This document shows, in pieces, positions 5,605 through 53,307 of a stretch of DNA of 64,000 bases (position 1 is the stretch's first letter; every line of letters starts with the position of its first letter). Under the pieces are notes generated by a model that was not told where the DNA came from, searched no databases, and saw only the letters and a list, made by a program, of their open reading frames with translations. Both the position numbers and the translations under genes were made by a program. The stretch lies in NCBI RefSeq assembly GCF_009914755.1, contig NC_060929.1; one strand, written 5' to 3'. This DNA is from the human T2T-CHM13v2.0 reference genome, Homo sapiens.

Positions 5605-5755
5605 GCCTCTGCCTCCTTTTCTCCCGCCGGCTCTAACCCGCGCTTGGCTAAGGTCCGCGGGAACCCGTGAGCCACCGAGAGAGCAGAGAACTCGGCGCCG
5701 CCAAACAGCCCAGCTCGCGCTTCAGCGTCCCGGCGCCGTCGCGCCACTCCTCCGA
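5605..5755 (+). other. TNFAIP8: First exon (5' UTR plus the A of a split ATG) of TNFAIP8, distal promoter isoform; start coordinate approximate
   Basis: ATG-free GC-rich segment ending CTCCTCCGA, followed by donor GTAAGT (5756-5761). Matches my recollection of the TNFAIP8 mRNA ...CCACTCCTCCGA-TGGCCACAGATG (MATDVFNSK...). Exon 2 is outside the window. Confidence 0.8.
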
Positions 5756-30468: not shown

Positions 30469-31142
30469 GGATGAGGAAATGTTCTAAAAATTGGATTGTG
30501 GTAATGGTTACGCAACTGTATACATTTACTAAAAATCATTTAATTGTACACTTACAATGATAAATTATATCTCAATAAGGCTATGGGGAAAAATGGTAAC
30601 AAAAGAAGAGTCAAGGGGTAGAGAGGTACAAATGAAACAAGATTGGCAAAATACTGGTTATTGTTGAAGGTGGGTTACAGATGAGAGTTTATTATACTCT
30701 TTCTACTTTCATGAATGCTTGAAAATTTGAATAATAAAAAGTTTTTAAAAGGGCAGTCACATGCATGTTATTGTATGGATGTCAGATAACACTTGCAGCG
30801 CTTTACAGTGGTGGATGTTCTAGGCACTCTTGGGACATAATTTTACCTTCATTGGAACCAAATCCATAGTATATCAATTCACTTTTAACGTGTTAGCTCT
30901 TCCCAATACCTTCTTTTTTTTCTTTTTTTTAAATTTTATTATACTTTAAGTTTTAGGGTACATGTGCACAGTGTGCACGTTAGTTACATATGTATACATG
31001 TGCCATGCTGGTGCGCTGCACCCATTAACTCGTCATTTAGCATTAGGTATATCTCCTAATGCTATCCCTCCCCCCTCCCCCCAACCCACAACAGTCCCCA
31101 GAGTGTGATGTTCCCCTTCCCGTGTCCATGTGTTCTCATTGT

Positions 31143-35009
<3,867 letters not shown>

Positions 35010-35057
35010 TTATTTTGCTCGTTAGTTGATGCAGTTTCTTCCTAGCCTCGATGGTCT

Positions 35058-36074
35058 TTACAATTTGGCATGATTTTGCAGTGGCTGGTACCGGTTGTTC
35101 CTTTCCATGTTTAGTGCTTCCTTCAGGAGCTCTTTTAGGGCAGGCCTGGTGGTGACAAAATCTCTCAGCATTTGCTTGTCTGTAAAGGATTTTATTTCTC
35201 CTTCACTTATGAAGCTTAGTTGGGCTGGATATGAAATTCTGGGTTGAAAATTCTTTTCTTTAAGAATGTTGAATATTGGCCCCCACTCTCTTCTGGCTTG
35301 TAGAGTTTCTGCCGAGAGATCAGCTGTTAGTCTGATGGGCTTCCCTTTGTGGGTAACCCGACCTTTCTCTCTGGCTGCCCTTAACATTTTTTCCTTCATT
35401 TCAACTTTGGTGAATCTGACAATTATGTGTCTTGGAGTTGCTCTTCTCGAGGAGTATCTTTGTGGCATTCTCTGTATTTCCTGAATCTGAATGTTGGCCT
35501 GCCTTGCTGGATTGGGGAAGTTCTCCTGGATACTATCCTGCAGAGTGTTTTCCAACTAGGTTCCATTCTCCCCGTCACTTTCAGGTACACCAATCTGACG
35601 TAGATTTGGTCTTTTCACATAGTCCCATATTTCTTAGAGGCTTTGTTCGTTTCTTTTTATTCTTTTTTCTCTAAACTTCCCTTCTCACTTCATTTCATTC
35701 ATTTCATCTTCCATCACTGATACCCTTTCTTCCAGTTGATCTCATCGGCTCCTGAGGCTTCTGCATTCTTCATGTAGTTCTCAAGCCTTGGCTTTCAGCT
35801 CCATCAGCTCCTTTAAGCACTTCTCTGTATTGGTTATTCTAGTTATACATTCTTCTAAATTTTTTTCAAAGTTTTTAACTTCTTTGCCTTTGGTTTGAAT
35901 TTCCTCCTGTAGCTCAGAGGAGTTTGATGGTCTGAAGCTTTCTTCTCTCAACTCATCAAAGTCATTCTCCATCCAGCTTTGTTCCGTTCCTGGTGAGGAA
36001 CTGCATTCCTTTGGAGGAGGAGAGGTGCTCTGCTTTTTAGAGTTTCCAGTTTTTCTGCTCTGTTTTTTCCCCAT
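35058..36074 (-). pseudogene. L1 ORF1 (RNA-binding chaperone), disrupted by nonsense codons
   Basis: MGKKQSRKTGNSK... stops after 97 aa (35781); second stop near 35557; C-terminal REKG...ARREW...YPA fragment at 35058-35555. Confidence 0.95.
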
Positions 36075-36656
36075 CTTTGTGGTTTTATCTACTTTTGGTC
36101 TTTGATGATGGTGATGTACAGATGGGTTTTTGGTGTGGATGTCCTTTCTGTTTGTTAGTTTTCCTTCTAACAGTCAGGACCCTCAGCTGCAGGTCTGTTG
36201 GAGTTTGCTAGAGGTCCACTCCAGACCCAGTTTGCCTGGGTATCAGCAGCGGTGGCTGCAGAACAGTGGATTTTCGTGAACCGCGAATGCTGCTGTCTGA
36301 TCGTTCCTCTGGAAGTTTTGTCTCAGAGGAGTACCCGGCCGTGTGAGGTGTCAGTCTGCCTCTACTGGGGGGTGCCTCCCAGTTAGGCTGCTTGGGGGTC
36401 AGGGGTCAGGGACCCTCGTGAGGAGGCAGTCTGTCCGTTCTCAGATCTCCAGCTGTGTGCTGGGAGAACCACTGCTCTCTTCAAAGCTGTCAGACAGGGA
36501 CTTTTAAGTCTGCAGAGGTTACTGCTGTCTTTTTGTTTGTTGTGCCCTGCCCCCAGAGGTGGAGTCTACAGAGGCAGGCAGGCCTCCTTGAGCTGTGGTG
36601 GGCTCCACCCAGTTCGAGCTTCCTGGCTGCTTTGTTTACCTAAGCAAGCCTGGGAA

Positions 36657-37148
36657 ATGGCGGGCGCCCTTCCCCCAGCCTCGCTGCTGCCTTGCAGTTT
36701 GATCTCAGACTGCTGTGCTAGCAATCAGCAAGACTCCGTGGGCGTAGGACCCTCTGAGTCAGGTGCGGGTTATAATCTCTTGGTGCACCGTTTTTTAGGC
36801 CCGTCGGAAAAGCGCAGTATTAGCGTGGGAGTGACCCGATTTTCCAGGTGCCGTCTGTCACCCCTTTCTTTGCCTAGGAAGGGGAACTCCCTGACCCCTT
36901 GTGCTTCCCGAGTGAGGCAATGCCTTGCCCTGCTTCGGCTCGCGCACAGTGCGCTGCACCCACTGTCCTGTGCCCACTATCTGGCACTCCCTAATGAGAT
37001 GAACCTGGTACCTCAGATGGAAATGCAGAAATCACCTGTCTTCTGTGTCGCTCACGCCGGGAGCTGTAGACTGGAGCTGTTCCTAATCAGCCATCTTGGC
37101 TGCCACCCCCAGTACCTTCTTAGCAGGAACTTGAGAAAATCATGGTAA
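36657..37148 (+). CDS. L1 antisense ORF0, open for 163 aa and running out of the element into flanking DNA
   Basis: ATG at 36657 (GAAATGG, strong Kozak), ~450 nt from the L1 5' end; MAGALPPASLLPCSLISDCCASNQQDSVGVGPSE matches primate ORF0; TAA at 37146-37148. Expression is not shown by sequence. Confidence 0.7.
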   Translation: MAGALPPASLLPCSLISDCCASNQQDSVGVGPSESGAGYNLLVHRFLGPSEKRSISVGVTRFSRCRLSPLSLPRKGNSLTPCASRVRQCLALLRLAHSALHPLSCAHYLALPNEMNLVPQMEMQKSPVFCVAHAGSCRLELFLISHLGCHPQYLLSRNLRKSW

Positions 37149-37409
37149 TCACATCCTCAGAAAGAAGGTTAAATTTGGTTCAGCGTATTCTCTTTAAGTG
37201 TGGTACATTTTAGAAAGGGTAAAATTACAATGAGCTTTACTGCTTTACAGGAGAATCTTCAATCTTTAAAAAGTAGACCATCTAAAACAAATGTTATTTG
37301 TAAAAGCACTGAGTAATGGAATTTTTTTGCATGTCCTTGCAACTTAGAAACGATATTGCATTCCTGACTCAGTCTATTATCAAAGCATATAAAAGAGTGA
37401 TAGTTACCA

Positions 37410-43189: not shown

Positions 43190-43478
43190 AAGATGGGGTG
43201 TCTCTATGTTTCCCAAACTGGAGAGCAGTGGCTGTTCATAGGCGCAATCCCACTACTGATCAGCACAGGATTTTGATCTGCTCTGTTTCTGACCTGGGCT
43301 GGTTCTACCCTCCTTAGGCAACCTGGTGGTCCCCTGCTCCTGGGAGGTCACCATATTGGTGCTGAACTTAGTGTGGACGCCTGATCGTCATACAGCCCAG
43401 AACTTCTGGGCTCAAGCGATCCTCCTGTCTTGGCCTCCCAAGTAGCTGGGACTATGGGCACATGCCACCGTGCCTGGC
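43190..43478 (-). pseudogene. 7SL (SRP RNA) retropseudogene, near full length, with A-rich tail at ~43128-43187
   Basis: Contains the S-domain absent from Alu (ATCCCACTACTGATCAGCAC...CCTCCTTAGGCAACCTGGTGGTCCCC...GGGAGGTCACCATATTG); TSD ~CTTGCTTT. Confidence 0.95.
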
Positions 43479-53008: not shown

Positions 53009-53307
53009 TTTTTTTTTTTTTTTTTTGAGACAGGATCTTCCTGTGTCACCCAGGCTGAAGTGCAGTGGTGAGATCATAGCTCACTGCAGCCTCTAACTCC
53101 TGGGCTCAAGCGATCCTCCCACCTCAGTCTCCTGAGTAGCTGGAACCACAGGTATGTGTCACCATGCCCAGCTAAGTTTCATATTTTTTGTAAGAAACGG
53201 TTTCGCCATGTTGCCTAGGCTCTTTTCGAACCCCTGGGTTCAAGTGATCCTCGCATCTCGACCTCCCAAAGTGCTAGGATTACAGGCGTGAGCCGTCACA
53301 CCTGGCC
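53009..53307 (-). mobile_element. AluJ
   Basis: GATCATAGCTCACTGCAGCCTC...TGGGCTCAAGCGATCCTCCC; poly(T). Confidence 0.94.

What the first reader, a model, noticed from the sequence alone, without database searches (positions are those of the whole stretch)
36657..36768. Predicted in-frame L1 ORF0-TNFAIP8 fusion from a transposon-supplied alternative first exon
Seen: the L1 is antisense to the host, so its antisense promoter fires towards the downstream TNFAIP8 exon. ORF0 has an intact ATG (36657, A at -3, G at +4) and the donor CAG|GTGCGG at 36762/36763, 106 nt from the ATG, which is phase 1 ending in G. Known: L1 antisense promoters make spliced chimeras, and ORF0 uses two donors to form fusion proteins. 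Recalled: TNFAIP8 exon 2 starts TG GCC ACA GAT. Inference: splicing gives G|TG GCC ACA GAT, so 35 aa of ORF0 (MAGALPPASLLPCSLISDCCASNQQDSVGVGPSES) join V-A-T-D... and the complete TNFAIP8 domain. That would be an ape-specific isoform with a Cys-rich N-terminus, switched on by L1 demethylation (embryo, germline, tumours). The second donor (36847/36848, phase 2) would be out of frame. This is the best candidate for an undescribed system here.
Basis: partly seen in the sequence, partly recalled or inferred. Interest (0 to 1): 0.8.

Follow-up and report, generated by a model that had tools for sequence, protein, structure and literature searches.

The report
Unproven in-frame L1 ORF0–TNFAIP8 splice prediction
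An old, dead L1 retrotransposon in a TNFAIP8 intron carries an antisense mini-gene (ORF0) whose splice donor would join the main TNFAIP8 coding exon in frame, but no RNA evidence for that join was found, and such layouts are probably common.

Summary
The sequence observation holds. There is an ATG at 36657, 35 codons plus one G, and a donor CAG|GTGCGG at 36762/36763. A second, phase-2 donor lies at 36847/36848. One slip: the base at -3 is G, not A. I fetched the rest of the gene from the same assembly. TNFAIP8 exon 2 begins TG GCC ACA GAT after a T-rich acceptor and is phase 1, so the join is in frame. It gives a 223-aa product with the whole TNFAIP8 Pfam domain. The junction matches that of the selected transcript's first exon, which also ends in G at phase 1.

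The host element is a full-length, coding-dead L1PA3 on the minus strand (about 30916-37112). Its ORF0 layout is a family trait: 13 of 33 related copies keep all four features, and frame match has a one-in-three chance.

I found no evidence that the splice occurs. TNFAIP8 is absent from the EST catalogue of L1 antisense chimeras and from three other supplement sets. One brain and glioma catalogue lists this L1, but only as an unspliced, unvalidated chimera with 11 reads, all lying downstream of both donors. That study also links such transcripts to host-gene activity, not L1 methylation.

Verdict: a correct but ordinary prediction, a candidate new member of a known kind.

The parts
30916..37112 (-). 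Full-length L1 with broken ORF1 and ORF2. It is called L1PA3, 6220 bp, in Pinson 2022 Table S2.
   Evidence: The poly-T tail sits at the left end and the L1 5' end at the right. ORF fragments hit Exo_endo_phos, RVT_1, Transposase_22 and Tnp_22_dsRBD. The longest own ORF is 618 aa. Thirty-nine other genomic copies align over about 1-1038 of the 5'UTR at 90-93% identity.
30907..30915 (.). Left target-site duplication, TACCTTCTT.
   Evidence: Read. The same 9 bases recur at 37113-37121.
37113..37121 (.). Right target-site duplication, TACCTTCTT.
   Evidence: Read.
36313..36663 (+). Presumed L1 antisense promoter, assigned by position only (L1 nt 450-800).
   Evidence: The position range is taken from a passage in Pinson 2022. 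It holds 6 CpGs, observed/expected 0.21. There is no ATG on the + strand in 36300-36656. Promoter activity was not tested.
36657..36762 (+). ORF0 start codon plus 35 codons plus one G. This is the candidate coding part of an alternative first exon.
36760..36768 (+). First ORF0 splice donor, CAG|GTGCGG, phase 1.
   Evidence: U1 duplex energy is -7.2 kcal/mol, in the top 4% of 5161 GT sites between the ATG and exon 2. The gene's four used donors score -6.7 to -10.2.
36845..36853 (+). Second ORF0 splice donor, CAG|GTGCCG, phase 2. It is out of frame with exon 2.
   Evidence: Energy is -6.8 kcal/mol. CAG|GT is kept in 30 of 33 relatives.
36657..37148 (+). Unspliced ORF0 reading frame of 163 aa. 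It runs through the L1 5' end into the flanking intron.
   Evidence: The 71-aa form is seen in only 1 of 33 relatives, L004.
36913..37283 (+). Approximate place of the published unspliced L1-chimeric read cluster (Id_1134). It lies downstream of both donors.
   Evidence: Pinson 2022 Table S2 gives hg19 coordinates. I mapped them to the window by aligning the L1 5' end, assuming no indels, which is an inference. This is the only ORF0-bearing L1 5'UTR in the 138 kb that cover the gene.
53030..53151 (+). Antisense-Alu cassette exon of TNFAIP8, with an alternative acceptor at 53034. Its inclusion would break the fusion frame.
   Evidence: AG acceptors and the CAG|GTATGT donor are read. The published isoform-5 primer maps at 53058-53079. 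Inclusion gives stops after 44 or 47 aa.
5607..5755 (+). Upstream first exon of TNFAIP8. It ends in A before GTAAGT and completes A|TG with exon 2.
   Evidence: The published isoform-2 primer maps at 5674-5692.

Best explanation
This is a fixed, full-length but coding-dead L1PA3 lying antisense in a TNFAIP8 intron. Its 5'UTR still carries the family's standard antisense ORF0 start, with a first AUG, 35 codons and two GT donors. By frame arithmetic, the first donor would join TNFAIP8 exon 2 in frame. The junction would match that of the selected transcript's first exon (G|TG, giving Val).

The available data show only low-level RNA that runs unspliced through the L1 5' end into the intron. That RNA is either an unspliced L1 antisense transcript or simply TNFAIP8 pre-mRNA.

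Most likely the element is a passenger. Any antisense-promoter output would follow host-gene transcription and stay unspliced. If translated, it would encode a 163-aa read-through ORF0. The ORF0-TNFAIP8 fusion is probably absent or a rare by-product, not a regulated isoform.

Shown: the sequence features, the frame, the domain content, the family-wide nature of the layout and the published unspliced reads. Inferred: promoter activity, the lack of splicing in untested tissues and the lack of function.
For: Sequence and frame:
- The ORF0 start and both donors are as described.
- Exon 2 encodes all of PF05527, profile 1-181 of 181.

Family trait:
- 13 of 33 related copies keep ATG, open frame, CAG|GT and the 106-nt spacing together.
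- The search with the 112 nt reported 1791 first-look candidates in the genome.

No spliced evidence:
- Criscione 2016 supplements: 10 files, 913,054 characters. There were 0 hits for TNFAIP8 and no chr5 hit near the locus.
- Jonsson 2019 supplements: 0 hits.
- Supplements of PMC11909889, titled as a long-read study of lung adenocarcinoma: 0 hits.
- Supplements of PMC12229592, titled as a chromatin-modifier inhibition study: 0 hits.
- The hub's gene table lists no exon at 36.5-36.9 kb among 10 RefSeq transcripts.

Unspliced evidence:
- Pinson 2022 Table S2, Id_1134, lists read counts of 2,1,1,1,0,1,0,1 in 8 gliomas and 0,3,1 in 3 controls. It is not validated and not in the EST literature.
- The read cluster maps downstream of both donors.

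Base rates:
- 44 of 1509 L1 chimeric transcripts are spliced at the 5' end.
- 57 of about 3200 genic ORF0 loci have an observed fusion (quoting Denli 2015).
- These transcripts follow the host locus, not L1 methylation.
Against: Nothing in the sequence forbids the splice.
- The first donor pairs with U1 as well as the weakest used donor of this gene.
- The exon 2 acceptor follows a long T run and is already used across about 124 kb from the upstream exon.
- The ORF0 AUG would be the first AUG of any transcript starting in 36300-36656.

The catalogues I could search are limited.
- They cover ESTs, brain and glioma, and neural progenitors. By title only, they also cover lung adenocarcinoma and drug-treated cancer lines.
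- I saw none for lymphoid or myeloid cells, placenta, embryo or germline.
- I did not check what each supplementary file lists.
- Denli 2015, with its list of 57 fusions, was not held.
- One Criscione supplement is a PDF that cannot be read here.
Confidence: 0.7

Rival explanations
1. The L1 antisense promoter fires in some settings and the first ORF0 donor splices to TNFAIP8 exon 2. This would yield a real 223-aa, probably great-ape-specific TNFAIP8 proteoform with a 35-residue ORF0 N-terminus.
For: The frame and domain content are verified. The donor strength is in the range of the gene's used donors. ORF0's ATG is the first AUG. ORF0 fusions and L1 antisense chimeras are a described class. 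TNFAIP8 already has isoforms with different N-termini, including one from a first exon of the same phase ending in the same G.
Against: No junction evidence turned up in any catalogue searched, and no RefSeq exon lies there. The only reads at this L1 are unspliced and downstream of both donors. Base rates for splicing or fusion are about 2-3%. The methylation-switch part is contradicted by Pinson 2022.
Confidence: 0.12
2. The antisense promoter of this copy is silent. The published chimeric read pairs are just TNFAIP8 intronic pre-mRNA from the upstream promoter at 5.6 kb, which passes through the L1 in the same direction.
For: The L1 lies inside the transcribed intron, and its antisense strand is sense to the gene. 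The reads come from Ribo-Zero total RNA at 0-3 per sample and start downstream of the presumed start sites. In that study, 92% of intragenic chimera-producing L1s have this orientation and their levels track the host gene, which is also what pre-mRNA would give.
Against: Pinson 2022 reports that most tested chimeras had 5' ends inside the L1 5'UTR: 201 of 204 in the 5'UTR and 173 of 204 in the first 500 bp. They also found such chimeras in polyA RNA. This particular locus was not among those validated.
Confidence: 0.35
3. Antisense transcripts do splice from ORF0, but into other acceptors: the Alu cassette exon at 53030 or 53034, the exon ending at 70254, or cryptic sites. That would give short ORF0-tagged peptides and RNAs prone to decay rather than a TNFAIP8 fusion.
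For: Both intervening exons carry usable splice sites. Joining them after ORF0 gives stops after 44 or 47 aa for the Alu exon, and after 73 aa for an exon taken as 70039-70254.
Against: No transcript evidence was found for these either. [quoted passage not shown] Isoform 2's primer maps to the upstream exon and isoform 5's to the Alu exon, so that promoter's transcripts mostly skip the Alu exon. The acceptor at 70038/70039 is my guess from the sequence.
Confidence: 0.05

Closest known systems
L1 ORF0 and ORF0-gene fusion proteins (Denli et al. 2015, Cell 163:583; seen only as cited in passages of PMC4908685, PMC4859970 and PMC13517631)
   Same: An antisense ORF in the 5'UTR of a primate L1PA element, with a purine at -3 and G at +4. 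Two internal GT donors are able in principle to join downstream host exons in frame.
   Different: No fusion RNA or protein has been observed for this locus. ORF0 here is 163 aa when unspliced, not the 70-71 aa described. I could not see Denli's list of 57 fusions.
L1 antisense-promoter chimeric transcripts, such as the 988 EST-supported transcripts of Criscione et al. 2016 (PMC4908685)
   Same: A full-length L1PA2-8-type 5'UTR, antisense to a host gene and upstream of host exons. That configuration gives sense-oriented alternative transcripts.
   Different: TNFAIP8 is not among them.
Unspliced L1 chimeric transcripts of brain and glioma (Pinson et al. 2022, PMC9396940)
   Same: This very L1 is entry Id_1134 of their Table S2. 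It is an L1PA3 with a 5'UTR, the chimera is on the gene's strand, and the reads cross the L1 5' end into unique DNA.
   Different: That entry is unspliced, unvalidated and low-count. It says nothing about an ORF0-exon 2 join.
TNFAIP8 isoforms with alternative first exons (NM_014350 and NM_001077654, as named in PMC6003558)
   Same: The same acceptor and the same phase. The NM_014350 first exon ends ...GAA G before GT, and the upstream exon ends in A and completes the start codon.
   Different: Those first exons are ordinary promoters with published RT-PCR and protein data. The L1 exon is only predicted.

Membership tests
L1 ORF0 locus | Lies on the antisense strand of the 5'UTR of an L1PA1-8 element. 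| tested here: met
   The ATG is 456 nt from the L1 5' end (37112), on the opposite strand to the L1 ORFs. The element is called L1PA3.
L1 ORF0 locus | Start codon in a good context with an open frame. | tested here: met
   G at -3, G at +4, and no upstream ATG in 36300-36656. The frame is open for 163 codons.
L1 ORF0 locus | Two internal splice donors. | tested here: met
   CAG|GT at 36762/36763 and at 36847/36848. Among 33 relatives these are kept in 23 and 30 respectively. The match is at sequence level only. The published positions of the two donors could not be read.
L1 ORF0 locus | A short ORF of about 70-71 aa ending inside the L1. | tested here: not met
   The ORF is 163 aa and runs out of the L1 to 37148. 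Of the 33 relatives, the 71-aa copy (L004) differs by one base near the second donor.
L1 antisense-promoter chimeric transcript | [quoted passage not shown] | not testable with these tools
   No CAGE or RNA-seq data are on hand. The published read pairs do not locate a start.
L1 antisense-promoter chimeric transcript | The RNA continues from the L1 into adjacent unique sequence. | tested here: inconclusive
   Eleven read pairs in 11 samples cross the L1 5' end. They are equally explained by host pre-mRNA.
ORF0-gene fusion protein | The ORF0 donor and the host acceptor are in the same phase, with no stop. | tested here: met
   106 nt plus a phase-1 exon 2 gives an open 223-aa frame.
ORF0-gene fusion protein | The junction is observed in RNA. 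| tested here: not met
   TNFAIP8 gave 0 hits in the supplements, and only an unspliced entry. The coverage of tissues is narrow.
ORF0-gene fusion protein | Peptide or ribosome evidence across the junction. | not testable with these tools
   No proteomic or ribosome-profiling data are available here.

The most novel reading that the evidence does not exclude
The L1PA3 supplies a genuine, lineage-restricted (great-ape) alternative first coding exon for TNFAIP8. When the locus is active, for example in activated immune cells or tumours, a fraction of transcripts would start in the L1 and splice from the first ORF0 donor to exon 2. The result would be a TNFAIP8 protein whose N-terminus is the 35-residue, three-cysteine ORF0 head. 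That head could change its localisation or partners relative to the known isoforms.
Probability: 0.07. Interest if true: 0.5.

Novelty: new member of a known kind. Interest (0 to 1): 0.2.

Why it matters
If the junction exists, TNFAIP8 would gain a transposon-derived, primate-restricted N-terminus. TNFAIP8 is described as a regulator of apoptosis and as active in immunity and cancer (passages). The junction peptide could also be a tumour-associated antigen.

As it stands, the finding shows how easily frame arithmetic yields such predictions. Pinson 2022 counts 8744 recent L1s with a 5'UTR, of which 31.5% are intragenic and 68% of those oppose the host gene. Applying the 13-of-33 splice-ready fraction and a one-in-three phase match gives an expectation of roughly 250 such loci. 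This is my rough inference. The 33 copies are this element's nearest relatives, not a random sample.

Tried and rejected
- Literature searches. Full-text searches for TNFAIP8 with ORF0, 'L1 antisense promoter', L1PA plus chimeric, and LINE-1 plus 'alternative promoter' plus 'transposable element' each found 0 papers.
- TNFAIP8 with LINE-1 gave 16 papers and with retrotransposon gave 13. By title and abstract start, none concerns L1 chimeras. One was opened and concerns TNFAIP8L2.
- The search was set too loosely: none of the 20 listed papers holds TNFAIP8.
- The search tool does not index supplements or about 1.7 million further PubMed Central articles. 'Not in print' therefore means only 'not found by these searches'.
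- Papers not held: Denli 2015, Lowe 2017, Speek 2001, Matlik 2006 and Shah 2023. As a result, the published positions of the two ORF0 donors and the list of 57 fusions were not seen.
- Earlier findings of this scan were not open.
- I considered that the hub's 'exon 30900-70254' might mean an annotated transcript running through the L1. I rejected this as unlikely. The published isoform-4 primer maps at 70096-70116 and a GT donor follows 70254, so the real exon sits near 70.0-70.25 kb. The 30900 start remains unexplained.
- I did not build an L1 consensus to date the copy. The age rests on the RepeatMasker name and on pairwise identities of 90-93%.
- No structure or complex prediction was run, because it would not bear on whether the splice occurs.

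Full report
**1. The observation**

On the + strand the window reads GGGAA ATG G at 36652-36660. The ATG is therefore at 36657-36659, with G at -3 and G at +4. The A's are at -1 and -2.

The 106th base is G at 36762, followed by GTGCGG, so the donor CAG|GTGCGG lies at 36762/36763 in phase 1. The second donor, CAG|GTGCCG, lies at 36847/36848, 191 nt from the ATG, in phase 2.

**2. The host element**

The stretch from about 30916 to 37112 is one full-length L1 on the minus strand.
- Its poly-A tail reads as poly-T at the left end, and its 5' end is at the right.
- It is flanked by a 9-base target-site duplication, TACCTTCTT, at 30907-30915 and 37113-37121.
- Its reading-frame fragments match the L1 ORF1 domains, and the endonuclease and reverse-transcriptase domains of ORF2.
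- The frames are broken. The longest is 618 aa.
- The 5'UTR is 1038 nt if the ORF that begins at 36074 is taken as the start of ORF1. That fragment itself matched no L1 ORF1 family.

Thirty-nine other copies in the same genome align over nearly all of those 1038 nt at 90-93% identity. Only 40 of 7572 first-look candidates were scored.

Pinson et al. 2022 list the element in their Table S2 as L1PA3, 6220 bp, minus strand, in TNFAIP8. It is the only ORF0-bearing L1 5'UTR in the 138 kb that cover the gene, so the identification is unambiguous.

The age of L1PA3, roughly great-ape, is recalled and was not tested. No other primate genome was available.

**3. The frame claim**

The window's assembly is held, so I fetched the 74 kb that follow the window. 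I then placed the published TNFAIP8 primers of PMC6003558 on it.
- The common reverse primer lies at window-equivalent 129813-129834.
- Upstream of it, a run of T and an AG precede TGGCCACAGATG at 129653.
- The open frame uses the first two bases as codon positions 2 and 3.

Two annotated first exons confirm this independently.
- The exon at 5607-5755 ends in A before GTAAGT, and so completes A|TG.
- The first exon that carries the isoform-1 primer ends ...AAG GAA G before GTAGGA, giving G|TG.

Joining 36657-36762 to exon 2 gives an open frame of 223 aa. The exon 2 part (187 aa) covers the whole Pfam TNFAIP8 domain, profile 1-181 of 181, E = 9.6e-83.

The other joins all end early:

| Join after ORF0 | Length before stop |
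|---|---|
| Second donor to exon 2 | 69 aa |
| Alu cassette exon from 53030 | 44 aa |
| Alu cassette exon from 53034 | 47 aa |
| Exon taken as 70039-70254 | 73 aa |

**4. How special is it?**

The ORF0 layout is a family trait. I compared 33 related copies. Four came from the 112-nt search and 29 from the 5'UTR search. These are all the loci returned other than the window itself, and none was dropped.

| Feature | Copies keeping it (of 33) |
|---|---|
| ATG | 32 |
| GT at the first donor | 32 |
| Full CAG\|GT at the first donor | 23 |
| 106-nt spacing | 31 |
| Frame open to the first donor | 18 |
| All four together | 13 |
| CAG\|GT at the second donor | 30 |

In 13 copies codon 25 is TGA where others have CGA. 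The window has CAA there.

The 112-nt query alone had 1791 first-look candidates in the genome. Given a one-in-three chance of phase match, hundreds of such in-frame predictions are expected genome-wide. This is my rough inference from the numbers.

The first donor is moderate. Its U1 duplex energy is -7.2 kcal/mol. That puts it in the top 4% of 5161 GT sites between the ATG and exon 2, and within the range of the gene's four used donors, -6.7 to -10.2. This is a crude score, not a trained splice model.

**5. Is the splice used?**

I found no evidence that it is.
- Criscione et al. 2016 catalogued 988 L1 antisense chimeric transcripts from ESTs. [quoted passage not shown] An eleventh supplement, a PDF, cannot be read here.
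- TNFAIP8 is also absent from the held supplements of Jonsson 2019 on DNA demethylation in neural progenitors.
- It is absent from the supplements of PMC11909889, titled as a long-read lung adenocarcinoma study.
- It is absent from the supplements of PMC12229592, titled as a chromatin-modifier inhibition study. I did not check what each of these files lists.
- The hub's table shows no exon at 36.5-36.9 kb among the 10 RefSeq transcripts.

The one positive record is Pinson 2022 Table S2, Id_1134.
- It lists chimeric read pairs with the L1 side at hg19 chr5:118635759-118635953 and the unique side up to 118636129.
- Counts are 2,1,1,1,0,1,0,1 in eight gliomas and 0,3,1 in three controls.
- It was not validated and is not in the EST literature.
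- Aligned on the L1 5' end, the cluster falls at about window 36913-37283, downstream of both donors. Those RNAs had therefore not spliced at either donor.
- They are equally explained by TNFAIP8 pre-mRNA, since the gene's upstream promoter transcribes through the L1 in the same direction.

The same paper reports three relevant findings (passages read).
- Only 44 of 1509 such transcripts are spliced at the 5' end.
- Their levels follow the host locus regardless of L1 promoter methylation.
- The antisense-promoter core is CpG-poor.

In this copy, L1 nt 450-800 hold 6 CpGs, observed/expected 0.21. Criscione, quoting Denli 2015, gives 57 observed fusions among about 3200 genic ORF0 loci.

**6. 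Reading**

The sequence is competent for the predicted fusion, and the prediction is arithmetically right. It is still only one of many such configurations.
- The base rate for actual splicing or fusion is a few percent.
- The only data at this locus show unspliced RNA.
- The proposed methylation switch is not what the best available study of these transcripts finds.

I rate the passenger reading at 0.70. Under it the ORF0 is competent, the RNA is at most low-level and unspliced, and there is no meaningful fusion. I rate the real-isoform reading at 0.12. The rival confidences are not exclusive of the best explanation: the silent-promoter reading (0.35) overlaps with it.

What remains open is largely a matter of data I cannot reach: junction databases, CAGE, long reads from immune and embryonic cells, and proteomics.

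**7. Comparison and novelty**

The mechanism, an L1 antisense promoter plus ORF0 donors giving host-gene fusions, is a described class (passages). This L1 is already listed as producing an unspliced chimera. An ORF0-TNFAIP8 fusion was not found in print by the searches, nor in the supplements named above. If real, it would be a new member of a known kind.

One membership feature of canonical ORF0 is not met. The unspliced frame is 163 aa, not about 70-71 aa. Only 1 of the 33 relatives has the 71-aa form.

Noticed in passing
window 30900 to window-equivalent 70254: The hub's gene table lists a 39-kb 'exon' 30900-70254. The published isoform-4 primer maps at 70096-70116 and a GT donor follows 70254, so the real exon lies near 70.0-70.25 kb. 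The 30900 start sits 7 nt before the L1's left target-site duplication. It looks like a transcript-placement artefact and remains unexplained.
   Followed up: partly
window 53030-53151: This TNFAIP8 cassette exon is an exonised antisense Alu. A T-run feeds two AG acceptors 4 nt apart (exon starts at 53030 and 53034), and the donor is CAG|GTATGT. The published isoform-5 primer maps inside it.
   Followed up: partly
window 36656/36657: NCBI's repeat mask stops at 36656, one base before the ORF0 ATG. The L1 5'UTR nevertheless continues to 37112, and 39 other copies align across it. The first 456 nt of the L1 are therefore unmasked.
   Followed up: partly
window 36657-37148, and loci L002-L005 and L015-L043: Unspliced ORF0 is 163 aa here. 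Among 33 relatives the lengths run from 8 to 206 aa, and only L004 has the 71-aa form. L004 differs by one base just after the second donor, which changes the frame.
   Followed up: partly
window 36729-36731 (ORF0 codon 25): This codon is CGA in 9 of the 33 related copies. It is TGA in 13 of 33 (a stop, as expected from CpG decay) and CAA in 10 of 33. The window also has CAA, which keeps the frame open.
   Followed up: yes
window 37639, 38028, 38253, 38546: These are the first poly(A)-signal hexamers on the + strand after the L1 5' end. They are possible ends for unspliced antisense transcripts.
   Followed up: no
window 43190-43478: A 7SL pseudogene (RN7SL174P) is listed by the hub on the minus strand. 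I did not examine it.
   Followed up: no
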